DNA of 61,800 nucleotides, filler included, from Chthonomonadaceae bacterium (GTDB lineage Bacteria; Armatimonadota; Chthonomonadetes; Chthonomonadales; Chthonomonadaceae), in assembly GCA_035650735.1 (NCBI GenBank). It is 3 parts of 3 records of this genome, joined end to end, with 100 filler letters (N's around TTAATTAATTAA, not from the genome) between each part and the next. Parts side by side here need not be neighbours in the genome. Positions count along the whole stretch, not along the records: positions 1 to 24,915 come from DASRGZ010000069.1; 2 more parts are not named here. One strand, 5' to 3'. The translations under genes were made by a program, and so were the position numbers. Each line of letters starts with the position of its first letter. The stretch's first letter is position 1. Positions 1,923-36,043 of this stretch are shown piece after piece. The notes below the pieces were generated by a model. That model did not search any database. It was not told the origin of the DNA and saw nothing but the letters and a program-made list of their open reading frames with translations.

Positions 1923-3185
1923 CTATTCACCTCCTAATCCTGTAGTCGCACGCGCTCCGACACCCGCGCTCTGCCCGGTGGTCGGGGCCGAAGTAGCACT
2001 CGGCGTGGTCGGAACACGGTGGGCGGCGGCGCGCTGCGCCTTGCCGGTCGGCGTCTTGGCCCACTCCCTGTCCATGAGCGTCTTCATGTTCTCCGCGATG
2101 GCGTCCCAGGCTTGCTCGGCCAGAATCTTCTCTTCCCGCCGCCGCTTGCGCTCCCGCTCCTCCGCCGGTTCATTGAGGGCCGCGTCAATCTGGGCGATGA
2201 AGGCTTCTGGCGTGTCGGCAAGGAACACGATGTCGCTGTAGAACCGCTCTACGTCCTTGATCGGCGTCGAGACGATGGGCCGGTGGGTCGCCATGTACTC
2301 CAGCGTCTTGGTCGGGCTGATGAACCGGGTCGCCTCGTTCATCGCGAAGGGCATCAGGCAGACGTCGGTGCCCTTGAGGATGCGCGGCAGGTCGGCGTAC
2401 TGCTGCTGACCCGGATAGTGCAGGTTCGGGGCTTTGGGCAGGTCCGCCGGGTCCACTTTGACGATTGGGCCGCACATCAAAAACTGCATGTCGGGCCGCG
2501 CCTGCGCCATTGCGCCGATGATGTCGTAGTCCAGCCGCTCGTCAATGACGCCGATGTAGGTGGCGCGCGGCGTCGGAATAGCCTGCATCCAGTCGGGCAC
2601 GGTAGTGCCCGGGTGGCACGCCAGGGAATAGTGCTTGGCATCCACGCCGCTGGCGAACAGGTGCGTGTTCGGGTTCATGTGCTTCTTAGCATCATACAGG
2701 CTGGCCCCGCCCGTAAATACGACCGCCGCCTTGCCTAGCAGACGCCGCTCCTGATCTCGAAGCTGGGGAGGCGCGAATTTGAAATTGGCTAGCTCGTCCA
2801 TGACATCGTAGACGATCATCTCCGGCTGGACGACCTCGACCATAAACTCCGGCGTGGGGGTGTAGAACCAGAGGGCGCGGTGGCGGAAATCGAGGGCGCG
2901 CAGCGCCTCGCGCACCTGCTGTCGGATGCGCTCCTGGCACGGCCACAGCCAGAGCGGGGTATCGCCGCACTCGCTTGCGCGCACCTGCGGCGTCAGCGTC
3001 ACCACGTTGGGCATCACCTCTTGCAGCACGGCGGGCGGCGAGGCGGCATCTTCCGGCGCATGGATGGGTTCTTCGACAAACAGAACGCGATGGTGGCGGG
3101 CCAACCGGGACAGAAGCTGCTGCGGGCGCTGCCAGACAAAGCTCCAGCGCAGGTGCGAGGCGACGATCAGATCAAAAGTGTCCAT
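1923..3185 (-). CDS. GT-B glycosyltransferase (SHLRW..VWQRPQ family, usually found next to UGM genes)
   Basis: SHLRWSFVWQRPQQLLSR, YDVMDELANF, FISPTKTLEYMA motifs; ATG 3185 with GGAAGGAG RBS; 3 nt upstream of the UGM start. Confidence 0.85.
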   Translation of the reverse strand: MDTFDLIVASHLRWSFVWQRPQQLLSRLARHHRVLFVEEPIHAPEDAASPPAVLQEVMPNVVTLTPQVRASECGDTPLWLWPCQERIRQQVREALRALDFRHRALWFYTPTPEFMVEVVQPEMIVYDVMDELANFKFAPPQLRDQERRLLGKAAVVFTGGASLYDAKKHMNPNTHLFASGVDAKHYSLACHPGTTVPDWMQAIPTPRATYIGVIDERLDYDIIGAMAQARPDMQFLMCGPIVKVDPADLPKAPNLHYPGQQQYADLPRILKGTDVCLMPFAMNEATRFISPTKTLEYMATHRPIVSTPIKDVERFYSDIVFLADTPEAFIAQIDAALNEPAEERERKRRREEKILAEQAWDAIAENMKTLMDREWAKTPTGKAQRAAAHRVPTTPSATSAPTTGQSAGVGARATTGLGGE

Positions 3186-3237
3186 AACTTCACTATCTCC
3201 TTCCAATAAGCGTGCATTTCCCTAGAACCGCGCCATC

Positions 3238-3270
3238 CTGCGGCGGGATGGCGACGCCATCCCGCCGCAG
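3238..3270. repeat. Perfect 15-bp inverted repeat
   Basis: CTGCGGCGGGATGGC-GAC-GCCATCCCGCCGCAG. Confidence 0.8.
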
Positions 3271-3802
3271 CGCAGCGGGGTAAAGCCGTCGTGAGCTTTG
3301 CCCAATCGCCCCGAGGGAAACGCCTTCGCGATCCTGTGCGGTTTCCGGCAGGCAGGCGCGCAGCCTGCGCCGTCTCCCGGTCGGCAGGGGCACAACGGGC
3401 CCTGTGGCGCGCGGTTGGCCCTGCCGCACAGGAACGGTATCCTCAAGGAAAAAGAGAACGTCGCCGGGGCGCTGACCTTCTCTCTACGCGGACTGTAGAC
3501 AGGCCGCACCTACCGATGCCTGCTGCGTATCGGGAGCGGCCTTATCCAGCCCCGCATGGGTATTCACTTGTCCCAGACAATCACGAGACGAGGCCGTAAG
3601 CGGTTACCAGCTACCAACGTGGAACGCCTGAGGGAGGCGAGTGGTAGACCTATCAACGTAGCAGAGCCGCCTGGGAGCAGGCAATTGAGGTTTTACTTGT
3701 TTGGCCGTTGGACGGGGACACGCCCGGTAAGGTTCCCGAAATTTCGGCCTTTCTTACGGATTTTCGGCGCCCTTTTCAGGCCGTTCGCCCGCCCAGATCG
3801 GC

Positions 3803-3831
3803 TTGACAACCCTCCTGGGGGGCAGTATACT
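3803..3831 (+). promoter_or_regulatory. Sigma70 promoter upstream of the mini-array/prfB
   Basis: TTGACA(3803-3808)-17 nt-TATACT(3826-3831). Confidence 0.8.
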
Positions 3832-3854
3832 GATTGTAGAAAACGTAAGAAGGA

Positions 3855-3931
3855 CTATTCCCCGCACACGCTGGGGTGAACTGGAGTAACCTGCCGAGCG
3901 GGTTATTCCCTGCACGCGCGGGGGTGAACCG
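3855..3931 (+). CRISPR. Type I-E-like CRISPR mini-array (2 degenerate 29-nt repeats, one 19-nt spacer), no cas genes nearby
   Basis: R1 3855-3883 CTATTCCCCGCACACGCTGGGGTGAACTG; spacer 3884-3902 GAGTAACCTGCCGAGCGGG; R2 3903-3931 TTATTCCCTGCACGCGCGGGGGTGAACCG; both fit the I-E pattern TTCCCCGC-N4-GCGGGG + 8-nt handle ending AACCG. Confidence 0.75.
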
Positions 3932-4011
3932 GAGAACGGCGGGAGCGCCGCGTAGTAAGGCGTTGTTAAGCCTGCTCGGCAGGTTACTCCGGTTATGGAG
4001 GGAGAATTCAC

Positions 4012-5158
4012 TTGCTCGAAAATATTCGCCGTGAAGCGCGCGACCTGCGCGCCCGGCTGGTCGAGCTGGGAGGTCATCTTTGACGCTGCCAGCCGCGAAT
4101 CGGAAATAGCCGACCTGGAGCGCCGCGCCGCTCGTCCCGACCTCTGGGACGACCCGACCACCGCGCAGGAGTTGCTGCAGCGGCTCAGCCAGGCCAGAGA
4201 AGCCCTCGTGCCCTATAAAGCGCTGGAGGCGCGGCTGGACGATCTGGAAGTGATGGGCGATCTGCTGGCCGAAGCAGCCGCCCCGGAGGAGGACCATGCC
4301 GCCGAGCTGCGCGAGCTAGAAAAGGAAGCGCGCAGCATCGCCGAAGCCCTGGATCAGCTAGAACTGGAGACCCTGCTTTCCGGAGAGAACGACGCCGCCG
4401 ATGCCATCGTCGAGATCAAGGCGGGCGCAGGCGGCACGGACGCCTGCGATTGGGTGACGATGCTCCAGCGGATGTATCTGCGCTGGGCGGAGACGCACGG
4501 TTATCGCTGCGATATTCTGGAGGAGAGCGAGGCGGAAGTGGCGGGCCTGAAAAGCACGACCTTCATCGTGCGCGGCAAAAACGCCTATGGTTATCTCTCC
4601 GCCGAACGGGGCGTGCACCGCCTGGTGCGCATCTCGCCCTTTGACGCCAACAAGCGCCGACAGACCTCGTTCGCCTCGGTGGACGTGCTGCCGGATCTGG
4701 GCGAGGAGATCAAGGTAGACATCAATCCGGACGACCTGCGCATAGATGTCTATCGTGCCAGCAGCGCGGGCGGACAGCATGTCAACAAGACCGAATCGGC
4801 GGTGCGCATCACGCACCTGCCGACGGGCATTGTGGTGACCTGCCAGAACGAGCGCTCGCAGCACAAAAACAAAGCGATGGCCATGCAGGTGCTGCAAGCG
4901 CGCCTGCTGGAGCGCGAACGGCGCGAGAACGAGGAGAAGATGGCGGCCCTGCGCGGCGAAGTCAAAGCCAACGAGTGGGGCAACCAGGATCGCTCCTACG
5001 TTTTCCAGCCCTACACCCTGGTCAAAGATCACCGCACCGGCTATGAGACCGGTGATGTTATCGGCGTGATGAACGGCAACATTGACCCGTTCATTCAAGC
5101 CTATCTCCAGTGGAAACAGGGCAAAGCCAACCGGGAAGAGGTCGCCGGCAGGAAGTAA
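4012..5158 (+). CDS. prfB: Peptide chain release factor 2, programmed +1 frameshift at 4078-4084
   Basis: TTG start 4012 after [33 protein letters not shown] then CTT-TGA-C with internal SD GGAGG just upstream; downstream frame has SPF (RISPFD) and GGQ motifs. Confidence 0.97.
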
Positions 5159-5279
5159 CCTCGGCCTCTTCTTTAACCCCTGTTTTCTCACTTTTGCCTA
5201 ACCCCCGTCTCGCTCCCCAAAGCGGGCGGGGGCGGGAATCCTGGCCCTTCGGGGCAGAAAGTTTGCAAGAGGGAAACCT

Positions 5280-5951
5280 ATGAAATCCCTGGGACGGCGT
5301 GCGGTCGCTCTGCTTAGCCTGTTGGGCGCTATGGCGCCCTCGCTTTGCGCCCCCGCCGTTGGCAGCGCCCAGACCTACCGAACGGACGTTGAGTTGACGA
5401 CCAAAGAGGCGGGCAAGAAGGAAGTGACGCTGGGGAATCTGGTCGCGGATGCTATCCGCGCCGCCGCTAAAAGCGATGTTGCCATTATCGCCGCCTCCTC
5501 GTTTAACGAGACCACGCTCCCCAAAGGCAGCTTCACCGCTCAGGATGTCCTGCGGGCGGTGGACGGCAAGGACGATACCATCGTTCTGGTTAAGCTGACC
5601 GGCGATCAACTCCTGCGCGCGCTGGAACACGGCCTCTACGTCTATCCGATCTCTAACAGCGGCTTCCTGCAGTTCTCGGGCATGACGGTCACCTTTAATC
5701 CTAGCGCCGAGAAGGAGCGGCGTGTCGTCTCCGTCAAAATTGACGGGGAGCTGTTGCAGCCGGGCAAGACCTATAAGGTTGCCATGCCGGCCCCGCTCGC
5801 CAACGGCGCGCTCGCCTACTTTAAGATCTGGAAGAAAAGCGACATCGAGAAGGACACCGACAAGACCCTGGAATCGGCGATCATCGCCTATCTCAATGAG
5901 CATAAGACGATCACAAAGGCCGATGAGCGCCTTGTCGCCAGGGGCCGGTAA
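5280..5951 (+). CDS. Secreted 5'-nucleotidase C-terminal-domain protein
   Basis: Signal peptide; EVTLGNLVADAIR, LTGDQLLRALEHG, GFLQFSG, YKVA motifs; no metallophosphoesterase N-domain. Confidence 0.8.
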   Translation: MKSLGRRAVALLSLLGAMAPSLCAPAVGSAQTYRTDVELTTKEAGKKEVTLGNLVADAIRAAAKSDVAIIAASSFNETTLPKGSFTAQDVLRAVDGKDDTIVLVKLTGDQLLRALEHGLYVYPISNSGFLQFSGMTVTFNPSAEKERRVVSVKIDGELLQPGKTYKVAMPAPLANGALAYFKIWKKSDIEKDTDKTLESAIIAYLNEHKTITKADERLVARGR

Positions 5952-33657: not shown

Positions 33658-36043
33658 TCAGAAGTCGTGCTGCACGAAGGCATCCAGGCGATGGTCCGTG
33701 CCGGTCGCCAACCCCTTGTACTGGGTTGTCCAGAACAGATAGTTCAGGCCGACGCTGGTGTTGCCTCCAATCCGCCAGCGGTTGGCAAGATAGATGGCAT
33801 CATTCCGGGTGCGCCCACCCGCCGGTATATCTCGGACATTGGGGCTATCCAGGGTGTAGCCCAGCGCGATCCGGTAGAGCCGCGTCGGCTGAAAGCCGGC
33901 CTCCACCCACCCACCGGAGGAGCGGATCGGCAGCCCGGTGGTGGGATTGACGCCCTGGCCGATGCCGCCCCGGAAGTCGCTCAGGTTCTGCCCGGTCCAG
34001 AGTTCGCCGCGCAGGTCCCAGCGGGCGGTGGGCTGCCACAGCAAGTCCAGGCCGATGCTATAACCGGGAAAACTCCCCTGCCCGGCTACCATTTTGGTAG
34101 CCGTCTCCCAGGCATAATGTCCCCACACGCCGGCGCTGGCTGTTCTGCTCTTCCAGCCCAGGCGCATCTGGACGTTGGGCAGACCGCTATCCTCGCCGTC
34201 CCGGATGCCGTTAGTATCTAAATCCTGGTTATCTACCGCGCTCGCCAGTCCGACGCCGAAAGCCAGGTTGAAGGGGCTGGTGGTCGGATCATAGGCGTAG
34301 CGAATCTGCGGACGGCGGTCGCCGAGGTTGCCCGCGTTCCACATGAGCGTATCGTCGTTCGGGGAGGGGTAGAGGGGCGAGATGATGTCCCAGGTCTGCC
34401 CCAACAGCAGACTGCTCGCCCCGCGCTGCAACTGCAAGTAGGCGTGGCGGATACGCAGCAGCGGGCGCGACTCGGGGGTCAGGCCGCTGCCGTTCTGCCA
34501 GTCCATCTCAAACTTGCCGGTTATGTTGTAGCCCTTGAGCGTATCCGGGGGAGCGGCAAAGTTGAGGCCTAAGCGGGTCAGGCGAGGATGAAGGGTCAGA
34601 ACGCTGTTGCCTGCCCGGGTGACGTTGGGGCTGCTGGGCGACTGGACAAAGAAGGGGGTCTGGCTATTATTGGTGGCCCCGCTGTCCCAGATGGTATCCA
34701 GGCGCAGGAACCCGTAGACGCTGACGCGCTCCCGGCTGGCGACCGTCGGTATGGTGGGCGGCTTGGCCGGCGGAGCGGGGAGCGGGCCAACCTGCTGCCG
34801 CAGTTGGGCAATCTCCTGGCGCTGCTCCTCCACCAGACGCCGGAGCTCGTCTATCTGCTGCTGCAAGTCCTGCCGGGCCGGATCTGCAAGGGCAGCGGCA
34901 GCACCGGCTGAGGAGGAAACCGGAGAAGAGGACGTAGCCTGCGCCTGCGGGGCCGGGCTTGCAGCGGCAGCGGAGGCCGCTTCCTTACGGCGGAAACTGA
35001 GCTCCCACTTGGCCTCCACCGGCTTGCCGTCGGCCTCGGCATAGGGATAGATGAAGTAGTTGAGCGGGCCGGCCTTCTGCGGCGGATCGAGCGTAATGTC
35101 CCGCCCGCACGACATCACGACGGCGGAGCGCGCCAGCACCAGGTTGCCGAACAGGTAGTCTCTTACCTCCGGCTTGCCGGAATCCAGCCAGCGGCGGGCG
35201 TCGGAAGCGTCGAGGGGAACCCAGCCCTGCGTGGGGTCGCGGAACCAGGTCCAGCAGTGATAGCCGCCGATCGTGCCCTCTTTGGGCAGGGGATCGGGAA
35301 CGGGAATGCCGGTGAGGGGGAAACCGAACTCCAGCACGGCGGGAATGTGCAGGCTGCGTGCCAGGGAGATGATGTAGCTATGCAGGTCGGAGCAGTTGCC
35401 CTTCTTGTAATCGCACACAAAGGCGACATCGCCCTGGGCATATTTGGGCGATTCCTTTTTGTAGTCATACTGCATGGTCGCCACGACATGATCGAAGATG
35501 GCATGCACCTGATCGAGCGACGTGGTCTTCCCGGCAGTCACTTCATGCGCGATCTGGCCGTAACGTCCGCCAATCGGAACCTTCTTGTCCGGCTCCAGCA
35601 GGCGGCGTACCTCTTCTGATTCTAAAGCGTCTTTTGGCACCGGGTTTTCGGCGGTAATGCCGGGCTTGCCCAGTACTTCTACCGCCTTGCGCGTTACCGT
35701 AAAGCGGACGTTGACCGTCAACGGCGCTTGCGGCTTCTCGACATGGAGGTAGACCATGCGGTTGCCGAACTTCGGCTCCCGGGCCTCCCGATACGGAACG
35801 GGACTGCTTACTTCCAGTGTCACGAACGGCCTGCCATTGGCTGTCGGAGGGTATGGGCAGCCAGATATCTAGCGCCTTCGCGTTTTCCGGCACAGCAGGA
35901 ACGCTAGCTTTGTAGGTAAACTCCGTGGTGAGGACGTTGGGGGCAGGCGGGGGCGTCTGTGGGTTTGCCGTGACGCGACACGCCGATGCCACCAGTGCCA
36001 GCGCGCTCAGGGCGCGCAGCCATTGCGGCTTCATTGGGATCAT
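33658..36043 (-). CDS. Transglutaminase-like domain fused to coiled-coil + DcaP-like outer-membrane porin; one frameshift near 35820
   Basis: AAGGAGG RBS, signal peptide and IWLPIP in ORF 35543..36043; removing 1 nt joins it to GNCSDLHS/YHCW/WVPLDASD, then [27 protein letters not shown] and terminal F. Confidence 0.7.

What the first reader, a model, noticed from the sequence alone, without database searches (positions are those of the whole stretch)
3803..4014. Cas-less type I-E CRISPR mini-array in the prfB leader whose short spacer is antisense to the sequence next to the prfB RBS
Seen: promoter TTGACA-17-TATACT, then two 29-nt I-E-like repeats around a 19-nt spacer. 3879-3902 (end of R1 + spacer) is the reverse complement of 3971-3994 at 22/24 positions. 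Both mismatches (U3882-G3991, G3900-U3973) are G-U wobbles on the + transcript, giving a continuous ~24-26 bp helix that ends 2 nt before the prfB SD (3997). I see no terminator between the array and prfB and no cas gene in the window. Established: I-E spacers are ~32 nt, Cas6e cuts 3' of the repeat hairpin, CCG flanks mark self, and repeat-derived short guides can be regulatory (CreA/CreR, scaRNA). Inference: the DNA target has a CCG flank, so DNA interference is unlikely and RNA-level pairing is favoured. This may be a leader in which Cas6/Cascade processing controls translation of an essential release factor (CRISPR co-option or addiction), or a repeat-derived riboregulator.
Basis: partly seen in the sequence, partly recalled or inferred. 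Interest (0 to 1): 0.9.

Follow-up and report, generated by a model that had tools for sequence, protein, structure and literature searches.

The report
Orphan CRISPR repeats in prfB leader
Two leftover CRISPR repeats and a very long hairpin sit in the untranslated leader of the release-factor-2 gene of a soil bacterium that has no matching Cas proteins, so this looks like recently inserted CRISPR debris rather than a CRISPR-controlled switch.

Summary
A strong promoter (3803-3831) is followed by two type I-E-like repeats (3855-3883, 3903-3931) around a 19-nt spacer. A 26-bp helix (3879-3904 with 3969-3994) ends 2 nt before the prfB Shine-Dalgarno sequence (fold z -6.5 to -7.9, 0 of 200 shuffles as stable).

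The Cas-dependent reading is not supported. The genome bin (97.6% complete) has no Cas6e, Cas7e, Cse1 or I-E Cas2. Another I-E array in it carries a perfect AAG-flanked spacer against its own chromosome, which active interference should not tolerate. None of 17 relatives' prfB loci has the repeats. The same-genus relative keeps the promoter but has a short, unstructured leader. The spacer target has a CCG (self) flank.

The element is one of about 18 dispersed loci of 1-4 I-E repeats in this genome. Three orthologous sites compared with the same-genus genome are all lineage-specific insertions. Thirteen of 17 loci lie just upstream of a co-oriented gene, and all 11 loci between tandem genes are in sense orientation.

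Best reading: an inserted fragment of an orphan I-E array, co-transcribed with prfB, acting at most as a Cas-independent RNA structure. The genome-wide sense-oriented scatter is the more interesting, unexplained part.

The parts
3803..3831 (+). sigma-70-type promoter: TTGACA (3803-3808), 17 nt, TATACT (3826-3831)
   Evidence: 11 of 12 matches and the only site in 3400-4200. The same promoter type stands upstream of prfB in the same-genus genome. By eye, it is also present in at least 8 of 17 relatives' prfB loci.
3855..3883 (+). R1, a degenerate I-E-type repeat. The stem has a C-U mismatch at pair 9-18, and the 3' end is AACTG instead of AACCG.
   Evidence: (nhmmer E 1.9e-5).
3884..3902 (+). 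19-nt spacer. Other arrays in this genome have spacers of 32-38 nt.
   Evidence: There is no other copy in the genome except its inverted partner.
3903..3931 (+). R2, an I-E-type repeat with a U-G wobble at stem pair 9-18.
   Evidence: (E 2.3e-6). It folds as a hairpin at the tip of the long helix.
3879..3904 (+). 5' arm of the 26-bp helix: the last 5 nt of R1, the spacer, and the first 2 nt of R2.
3969..3994 (+). 3' arm of the helix (anti-spacer). Its last 6 nt, CCGGTT, are also present in the repeat-free leader of the same-genus genome.
3997..4004 (+). prfB Shine-Dalgarno sequence GGAGGGAG, 2 nt after the helix.
   Evidence: Read. The homologous AGAAGGAG stands in the same-genus genome.
4012..5158 (+). 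prfB: TTG start 4012-4014; frame 0 runs to the in-frame TGA 4081-4083 inside the +1 frameshift site CTTTGAC (4078-4084); the +1 frame runs to the stop at 5158.
   Evidence: PCRF 4.3e-56, RF-1 1.5e-43. The frameshift site is conserved in 16 of 17 relatives' loci.

Best explanation
The element is a lineage-specific insertion of a rearranged fragment of an orphan type I-E CRISPR array into the 5' leader of prfB. The fragment consists of two decaying repeats, a truncated spacer and an inverted copy of that spacer.

It is co-transcribed with prfB from the conserved promoter. The RNA folds into a weak R1 hairpin plus a 26-bp helix capped by the R2 hairpin.

No cognate Cas6e or Cascade exists in this genome, so the element does not act as CRISPR. 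Any effect on RF2 expression would be Cas-independent and in cis. A long perfect duplex 2 nt from the SD would be a substrate for a double-strand RNase such as RNase III, or a 5' structure that changes mRNA stability or ribosome access.

Shown: the anatomy, the fold, the lack of I-E cas genes in the bin, the absence from relatives, and membership in a dispersed family. Inferred: co-transcription, the origin by inverted duplication with a microhomology junction at CCGGTT, and any RNA-level effect.
For: - Anatomy and fold.
- I-E repeat identity: the same core lies next to cas7e-cas5e-cas6e-cas1 in G034.
- No I-E cas genes in G000: five family searches gave 0 hits. tblastn with all ORFs of 100 aa or more from eight relatives' cas6e loci gave only a Cas1 cross-hit to the unrelated C93 locus plus translated-array artefacts. 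The only cas locus is I-B-like/type III, with a different repeat.
- Tolerated self-target: a spacer in the C109 array matches 32 of 32 nt with an AAG flank in a chromosomal ORF beside greA.
- Decay: R1 and R2 differ at 4 of 29 positions and both deviate in the stem.
- Insertion: the same-genus G001 keeps the promoter and SD region but has a leader about 85 nt shorter, without repeats, which is unstructured (z +0.98). 0 of 17 relatives' prfB loci have a repeat.
- Same behaviour at other loci: the two fpg-leader repeats and the yceD repeat are absent at the orthologous G001 sites. G001 has one repeat that G000 lacks.
- No internal promoter or terminator between the array and prfB.
Against: - The genome is a 224-contig metagenome bin, so an I-E cas operon on an unbinned contig cannot be excluded. 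The cas family searches rang in only 1 of 14 control genomes (Thermus), which limits their stated sensitivity, although they did find Cas6e in 8 of 41 relatives.
- The C109 array has three identical repeats and a perfect spacer match, so I-E adaptation was active recently.
- All three non-Watson-Crick pairs of the helix are G-U on the + transcript. The helix architecture (arm after the first repeat, anti-arm after the last) recurs at C109 and C127b. The repeats are sense-oriented at 11 of 11 loci between tandem genes. These points hint at selection on the RNA rather than neutrality.
- There are no RNA data, so the transcription start and any processing are untested.
Confidence: 0.6

Rival explanations
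1. Exapted cis-RNA module. In this lineage, I-E repeat hairpins (alone or inside longer foldbacks) have spread as sense-oriented modules into 5' leaders and intercistronic regions. They are kept because they change mRNA stability, processing or translation. The prfB leader would be one functional case, for example an RNase III-processed or 5'-protected leader.
For: - About 18 loci carry the repeat.
- 13 of 17 loci with full-length repeats have a Pfam- or GC3-supported co-oriented gene starting 0-154 nt downstream.
- 11 of 11 loci between tandem genes are in sense orientation (binomial 0.0005, my arithmetic).
- The hairpin is kept in 91% of cells, with pair 10-17 as G-C in 13 copies and A-U in 9.
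- At fpg the start codon is 3 nt after the repeat, and at C32 it follows directly, so the repeat's GGGGG sits where the SD should be.
- Long-range helices enclosing repeats occur at C69, C109 and C127b (z -6.1, -5.65, -3.7).
- Orphan I-E mini-arrays lie between a promoter and rpoB in G022, and upstream of folD in G018. Neither genome has Cas6e.
Against: - None of the three G000 insertion sites compared is conserved at the orthologous site in the same-genus genome, so there is no evidence of long-term retention.
- The G-C/A-U covariation may be inherited from different source arrays, since both variants exist in relatives' arrays.
- The orientation bias could come from an insertion mechanism tied to replication or transcription.
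- The genome is rich in other dispersed hairpin families, so a general propensity for hairpin spread could explain the pattern without function.
- There are no expression data.
Confidence: 0.25
2. A Cas6e or Cascade supplied in trans (from an unbinned island, plasmid or phage) cuts or binds the leader. This releases a ~48-nt cr-like RNA that pairs beside the SD, coupling RF2 synthesis to CRISPR-Cas presence.
For: - The repeats are of the type bound by Cas6e in relatives.
- Cas6e is present in 4 of 24 genomes of the same family.
- Adaptation was recently active in this lineage.
- Regulatory mini-arrays with two degenerate repeats are known (PMC10120712, passages read; PMC9458426 and 10.1101/2023.03.10.532045, abstracts only).
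Against: - No I-E cas gene is in the bin or in the same-genus genome.
- A tolerated perfect self-target with an AAG PAM exists.
- R1 has a stem mismatch.
- The target has a CCG flank and lies in the transcript leader, not at a promoter.
- The element is not in or beside a cas locus.
- It is absent from all 17 relatives' prfB loci, including Cas6e-positive genomes whose prfB locus was fetched, such as G002 and G011.
Confidence: 0.05
3. DNA-level element. The 116-bp foldback (3879-3994) is a mobile or recombinogenic DNA palindrome (MITE-like, or an invertible segment), and the RNA fold is irrelevant.
For: - The 26-bp inverted arms flank a 64-bp core.
- The segment is an insertion relative to G001.
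- The genome holds Y1 transposases and several dispersed hairpin families.
Against: - The arms occur nowhere else in the genome.
- Across two public collections, both arms together occur only in two metagenome contigs identical to the window.
- There is no target-site duplication at the junctions.
- The Y1 transposase is flanked by a different hairpin.
- No inverted or excised form appears in contigs of 4 DNA runs.
- A 64-bp core is very short for site-specific inversion (my own knowledge).
Confidence: 0.1

Closest known systems
Orphan or degenerate CRISPR arrays and solitary repeat units (review PMC8616872, passages read; Shmakov et al. 2020 'CRISPR arrays away from cas genes', recalled, not in the library)
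   Same: Type-specific repeats far from any cognate cas gene; mini-arrays of one spacer between two repeats, or a single repeat; signs of decay; a self-targeting spacer alongside missing cas genes.
   Different: Here there are about 18 separate loci of 1-4 repeats in one genome. They were inserted cleanly into syntenic intergenic sites rather than left behind by cas loss, mostly in leaders of housekeeping genes and in sense orientation. The described solitary repeat units and mini-arrays are mainly in viruses and proviruses.
Cas-dependent regulatory mini-arrays: CreA of CreTA (PMC9458426, abstract), CreR (10.1101/2023.03.10.532045, abstract), cr-like RNAs inside cas loci (PMC10120712, passages read), crlRNAs (10.1101/2024.12.27.630466, abstract)
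   Same: Two degenerate repeats flank a short or odd spacer that is complementary to a nearby sequence next to a gene start.
   Different: Those lie in or beside cas loci, need the cognate effector, and pair partially (seed) with a promoter target flanked by a valid PAM such as AAG for I-E. Here there is no cas locus and no effector. The full-length pairing extends into the repeats, the flank is CCG, and the target is in the same transcript.
REP/BIME-type intergenic palindromic repeats with RAYT transposases (recalled)
   Same: A short GC-rich hairpin unit dispersed in intergenic regions, singly or in small clusters, and transcribed as part of mRNAs.
   Different: The unit is a bona fide I-E CRISPR repeat. 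It has tens of copies rather than hundreds, and no association with the genome's Y1 transposase, which is flanked by another hairpin.
Structured 5' leaders processed by RNase III or acting as 5' stabilisers (for example rnc, pnp and ompA leaders, and the cryIIIA STAB-SD; recalled)
   Same: A long perfect duplex or 5' stem-loops between the transcription start and the SD of an mRNA.
   Different: No homology to any of these and no Rfam match. The function here is untested, and the structure is absent in close relatives.
RNA anti-CRISPRs (Racrs): solitary repeats on phages and plasmids (PMC10651486, abstract)
   Same: Solitary CRISPR repeats transcribed outside arrays.
   Different: Racrs are carried by mobile elements that attack Cas-positive hosts. 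These repeats are chromosomal, in housekeeping leaders of a host without the matching Cas proteins.

Membership tests
Type I-E CRISPR array | 29-nt repeat with the I-E stem-loop and a 3' handle like that of arrays next to I-E cas genes | tested here: met
   R1 and R2 match the genome-wide consensus CTATTCCCCGCACGCGCGGGGGTGAACCG. The core is as in arrays beside cas7e-cas5e-cas6e-cas1 of G034. The stem is paired in 91% of cells.
Type I-E CRISPR array | Regular spacing with spacers of about 32-33 nt and near-identical repeats | tested here: not met
   The spacer is 19 nt, and R1 and R2 are 25/29 identical. Other loci in the genome do have 61-nt periods (C126, C109, C114, C147).
Type I-E CRISPR array | Cognate I-E cas genes in the genome | tested here: not met
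   Searches gave 0 hits in a 97.6%-complete bin. Caveat: this is a metagenome bin, and the controls rang only in Thermus.
Cas-dependent regulatory mini-array (CreA/CreR/cr-like RNA) | Located within or next to a cas operon of the same type | tested here: not met
   The neighbours are a glycosyltransferase, prfB and a 5'-nucleotidase. The only cas locus, on contig C93, is of another type.
Cas-dependent regulatory mini-array (CreA/CreR/cr-like RNA) | Spacer pairs with a promoter-region target flanked by a valid PAM | tested here: not met
   The flank is CCG, identical to the repeat end. The target is 3971-3989 in the leader beside the SD, downstream of the promoter. A spacer in this genome's own C109 array has an AAG-flanked target, so AAG is the PAM used by this I-E repeat family's adaptation.
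Cas-dependent regulatory mini-array (CreA/CreR/cr-like RNA) | Two degenerate repeats flanking one short spacer | tested here: met
MITE | Multi-copy unit with terminal inverted repeats and target-site duplication | tested here: not met
   The arms and the whole 140-nt unit are single-copy. There is no duplication at the junctions relative to G001.
REP/BIME elements | Dispersed intergenic palindromic units associated with a RAYT (Y1) transposase flanked by the same units | tested here: inconclusive
   Dispersed intergenic hairpin units: yes. Y1 transposase flanked by them: no; it is flanked by a different hairpin.
Known cis-regulatory RNA families (Rfam 15) | Match to a curated covariance model | tested here: not met
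   0 matches at E up to 1 in 3000-5500, both strands.

The most novel reading that the evidence does not exclude
In a lineage that has lost (or never binned) its type I-E cas genes, the 29-nt I-E repeat has taken on a second life. It would be a proliferating, sense-oriented RNA hairpin module that inserts into leaders and intercistronic regions of core genes (prfB, fpg, tatA, yceD, pspA, pilT-like; rpoB and folD in sister genera). In places it supplies the ribosome-binding site, and it nucleates long foldbacks such as the 26-bp prfB helix. This would be a CRISPR repeat exapted as a REP-like or 5'-UTR regulatory element, independent of Cas proteins.
Probability: 0.25. Interest if true: 0.75.

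Novelty: new variant of a known kind. Interest (0 to 1): 0.45.

Why it matters
As a Cas-controlled switch on an essential release factor it would have been remarkable, but the evidence points away from that.

What remains is smaller but real. It is a clean natural example of CRISPR repeats inserted de novo into the leader of an essential gene, in a genome where such repeats are scattered at about 18 sites with a strong sense-strand bias and no cognate Cas proteins.

If the scatter reflects mobility or selection, it would show a route by which CRISPR repeats leave arrays and become ordinary RNA structural elements. It would also caution against reading every repeat-plus-complement near a gene as Cas-guided regulation.

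In addition, it gives a natural pair of prfB leaders, one structured and one unstructured, from the same genus, for testing what a 26-bp helix beside an SD does.

Tried and rejected
- RNA evidence: the look-up of sequencing runs listed 8 DNA holders in 5 studies and no RNA holder. Laying contigs of 4 runs showed no variant, indel or joint. Nothing can therefore be said on expression, transcript ends or population variation.
- Covariation of the helix: the only other copies are two metagenome contigs, 100% identical over 1308 nt, so no test was possible. The 17-mer scans otherwise gave single matches that I take to be chance: 12 genome contigs of unrelated phyla and 20 metagenome contigs.
- Rfam: no family matched.
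- Array-fission model (repeats as rearrangement breakpoints): rejected for prfB, fpg and yceD, because both flanks are syntenic with G001.
- RAYT/IS200-type mobilisation: the Y1 transposase on C166 is flanked by a different hairpin.
- Anti-cas orphan-array model: 12 spacers were BLASTed against the relatives' cas loci that I held, with no hits.
- G023's 41 pattern hits turned out to be a different hairpin element, not I-E repeats.
- tatA orthologous site: no match in G001, so not informative.
- Response-regulator locus: the G001 matches began inside or just before the coding region and were not followed up.
- Earlier findings of this scan: none for this genome.
- Literature: four searches found no description of Cas-less I-E repeats dispersed in housekeeping-gene leaders. 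Shmakov et al. 2020 is not in the library and could bear on this.
- Taxon: only a weak lead to Chloroflexota, from the protein atlas.
Full report
**What is there.** The window's first 24,915 bases are contig C69 of a 6.52-Mb, 224-contig genome bin, 97.6% complete with 3.4% contamination.

- A sigma-70-type promoter stands at 3803-3831 (TTGACA, 17 nt, TATACT). It matches 11 of 12 positions and is the only such site in 3400-4200. No terminator-like site follows it.
- Two 29-nt repeats follow at 3855-3883 and 3903-3931, around a 19-nt spacer.
- Positions 3879-3902 are complementary to 3971-3994 at 22 of 24 positions.
- As RNA, the helix runs for 26 bp (3879-3904 with 3969-3994), with three G-U pairs and no mismatch, and is capped by the R2 hairpin.
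- The leader 3839-4030 folds at -90.2 kcal/mol (z -6.46, 0 of 200 shuffles as stable). The foldback alone folds at -73.9 kcal/mol (z -7.9).
- The helix ends at 3994 and the SD GGAGGGAG starts at 3997.
- prfB starts at TTG 4012. It has the usual CTT TGA C frameshift site at 4078-4084 and PCRF plus RF-1 domains.
- Rfam has no match.

**The repeats are type I-E repeats.** The same core (ATTCCCC-N-GGGGGTGAAC) forms long arrays in relatives. In G034 the array begins about 1.7 kb downstream of cas6e, in a cas7e-cas5e-cas6e-cas1 gene row confirmed by Pfam. Cas6e was found in 8 of 41 genomes searched (G000 included and negative), and in 4 of 24 genomes of the same family.

**No I-E Cas proteins in this genome.**

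- Searches of the whole bin gave no match for Cas6e (PF08798, TIGR01907), Cas7e (PF09344), Cse1 (PF09481) or the I-E Cas2 (PF09707).
- tblastn with every ORF of 100 aa or more from eight relatives' cas6e loci hit only the Cas1 of an unrelated locus, plus translated repeats.
- That locus, on C93, is I-B-like with type III parts. It has an 80-repeat array of a different repeat.
- The same-genus genome G001 (89% complete) also lacks Cas6e.

There are two caveats. This is a metagenome bin, so an unbinned cas island is possible. Also, these family searches rang in only one of 14 control genomes.

Independent support comes from the C109 array. One spacer matches 32 of 32 nt, with an AAG flank, inside a chromosomal ORF next to greA on contig C91. 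Active I-E interference should not tolerate such a target. The same finding also shows that adaptation worked recently in this lineage.

**Not conserved.**

- prfB loci were fetched from 17 relatives, after 23 of 41 genomes matched the query.
- The frameshift site was found in 16 of the 17.
- A repeat profile and a loose pattern found repeats in none of the 17, only in G000 itself.
- In G001 the promoter and the first ~25 nt of the leader align with the window up to AGAAGGA (window 3848-3854), and the sequence from CCGGTTA to the SD aligns again. In between, G001 has 49 unrelated nt where the window has 134 nt (3855-3988).
- The G001 leader has no unusual fold (z +0.98).

So the array plus anti-spacer is an insertion or replacement in the G000 lineage. 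The last six bases of the 3' arm (CCGGTT) are ancestral. I infer that a palindromic fragment of a rearranged array joined the leader there by microhomology with the repeat end AACCG(G). Inverted repeat copies do exist elsewhere in the genome, at C19.

**One of many.** A profile search found 39 hits at E up to 10. The convincing ones fall at 18 loci on 17 contigs, each with 1-4 repeats. A further degenerate copy upstream of fpg was seen only by eye.

- The spacer/anti-spacer unit of prfB is unique; only the repeat is shared.
- Of the 17 loci with full-length repeats (C55 dropped as a partial copy inside an ORF end), 13 have a co-oriented gene starting 0-154 nt downstream. Eleven are supported by Pfam: PilT-like ATPase, PspA, prfB, PP2C, YceD, TatA, Fpg, a PEP-CTERM protein (weak, E 8e-4), an epimerase, a response regulator and a glycosyltransferase. 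Two (C32, C115) are supported by third-position GC only.
- C114 and C127a have only unsupported short ORFs nearby. C42 and C219 have none.
- All 11 loci that lie between two same-strand genes carry the repeat in sense orientation. Three loci (C59, C69, C115) lie between divergent genes.
- At fpg the GTG start, fixed by the N-terminal PELPEVE, is 3 nt after the repeat. At C32 the ATG follows directly. In both, the repeat's GGGGG lies where the SD should be.
- The stem is paired in 91% of cells over 24 copies. Pair 10-17 is G-C in 13 copies and A-U in 9. Both variants also occur in relatives' arrays, so this may be inherited.

**Insertions, not relics in place.** The two fpg-leader repeats flank about 100 nt of leader that G001 also has, but G001 has neither repeat. 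The yceD intergenic region is 127 nt with the repeat in G000 and 37 nt without it in G001. G001 has one solitary repeat, just upstream of a leader sequence that G000 also has (possibly T-box-like, by eye only), and G000 lacks that repeat. In all three G000 cases both flanks are syntenic. This rejects the idea that the loci are fragments of arrays split by rearrangement. How a 29-nt unit, or a foldback holding it, gets inserted is unexplained.

**Recurring architecture.** At C109 and C127b, the sequence after the first repeat is complementary to the sequence after the last full repeat (GGGTTCTA-type and TAGAACCC-type arms). This gives long helices that enclose the inner repeats, as at prfB (z -5.65 and -3.7). 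Such arms also occur without repeats.

In sister genera without Cas6e, G022 (5 contigs) has two repeats plus a degenerate third between a promoter and rpoB. G018 has a four-repeat array upstream of folD.

**How it most likely works.**

- Shown: the promoter is conserved, there is no second promoter or terminator before prfB, and the RNA would fold very stably.
- Inferred: the array is transcribed as the prfB leader and has no CRISPR function. Its RNA either does nothing of consequence, or acts in cis as a double-strand RNase substrate or a 5' structure beside the SD.

I put 0.6 on 'inserted orphan-array fragment, Cas-independent, at most a modest cis effect'. The three G-U pairs all favour the + transcript, but with three events this is weak evidence.

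**Comparison with known systems.** The closest kinds are orphan arrays and solitary repeat units (PMC8616872, passages) and Cas-dependent regulatory mini-arrays (PMC10120712, passages; PMC9458426 and two preprints, abstracts).

Membership in the regulatory class fails on three tested features: no cas neighbourhood, no effector, and no PAM-flanked promoter target. It resembles REP elements in distribution, but not in its association with a Y1 transposase.

Four literature searches found no report of I-E repeats dispersed in housekeeping leaders of a genome without I-E cas genes.

**Verdict.** The striking interpretation is not supported. The element is a new variant of a known kind (orphan mini-array), and its interest lies mainly in the unexplained, sense-biased scatter of which it is part.

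Noticed in passing
G000 contigs C19, C32, C42, C55, C59, C94, C96, C98, C105, C109, C114, C115, C126, C127 (two loci), C147, C219 (loci L032-L048): About 18 loci carry 1-4 I-E-type repeats, scattered through a genome without I-E cas genes. 13 of 17 lie just upstream of a co-oriented gene, and 11 of 11 between tandem genes are in sense orientation.
   Followed up: partly
G000 C109:6237-6464 and C91:968-1378 (L041, L168): The C109 array has three identical variant repeats. One of its spacers matches 32/32 nt, with an AAG flank, in a chromosomal ORF next to greA. This is a tolerated self-target.
   Followed up: partly
L040 2501-2657 (G000 C105, minus strand) versus L141 1300-1500 (G001): Two repeats were inserted in the fpg leader around ~100 nt of ancestral leader. 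The fpg GTG start is 3 nt after the second repeat, so the repeat's GGGGG sits at SD distance. G001 has neither repeat.
   Followed up: partly
L065 (G022, minus strand, about 1437-1591 in that orientation) and L067 1501-1710 (G018): Orphan I-E mini-arrays lie between a promoter and rpoB (G022) and upstream of folD (G018), in genomes with no Cas6e detected.
   Followed up: partly
window 3995-5158: An ATG at 3995-3997, at the foot of the helix, opens the +1 frame that runs straight into the RF2 body. Starting there would bypass the autoregulatory frameshift. No SD precedes it, and G001 has no such ATG.
   Followed up: no
window 3737-3768: Two copies of a palindrome-like 12-mer (CGAAATTTCGGC and CGGATTTTCGGC), 20 nt apart, lie 35-65 nt upstream of the prfB promoter. 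They could be an operator-like site.
   Followed up: no
G000, 101 places (for example C1:22018, C98:6409, C105:22808); G023, 41 places: A second dispersed hairpin family, ...CCTAACCCCCCGGCCCCC-TTCCCTNNNAGGGAA-GGGGGTGACC..., is followed by further nested hairpins. In G023 it occurs as inverted pairs about 130 nt apart, which is MITE-like.
   Followed up: partly
G000 C59:69174, C96:86611, C115:71337, C159:1393, and beside repeats at C19, C109, C127: Foldbacks built from GGGTTCTA-type and TAGAACCC-type low-complexity arms. Three of them are combined with I-E repeats.
   Followed up: partly
G000 C166:79600-80950: A Y1 (RAYT-like) transposase is flanked on both sides by GGGTACTGAAAGTACCC-type hairpins. 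This looks like a separate REP-like system.
   Followed up: no
G000 C93:2501-20567 (L003): The genome's only cas locus. Reading along the minus strand: WYL regulator, Cas6, an unassigned large protein, Cas7 (DevR), Cas5, Cas3, Cas4, Cas10-like, RAMP, Csx1-like, Cas1. An ~80-repeat array with an unrelated repeat lies beside it.
   Followed up: partly
L083 about 1495-1527 (G001) versus G000 C98, reverse strand, about 34842-35183: G001 has a solitary I-E-like repeat just upstream of a conserved leader (GGGGAAGAGTA..CAGAGAGGGAGG) that looks T-box-like by eye only. The G000 ortholog lacks the repeat.
   Followed up: partly
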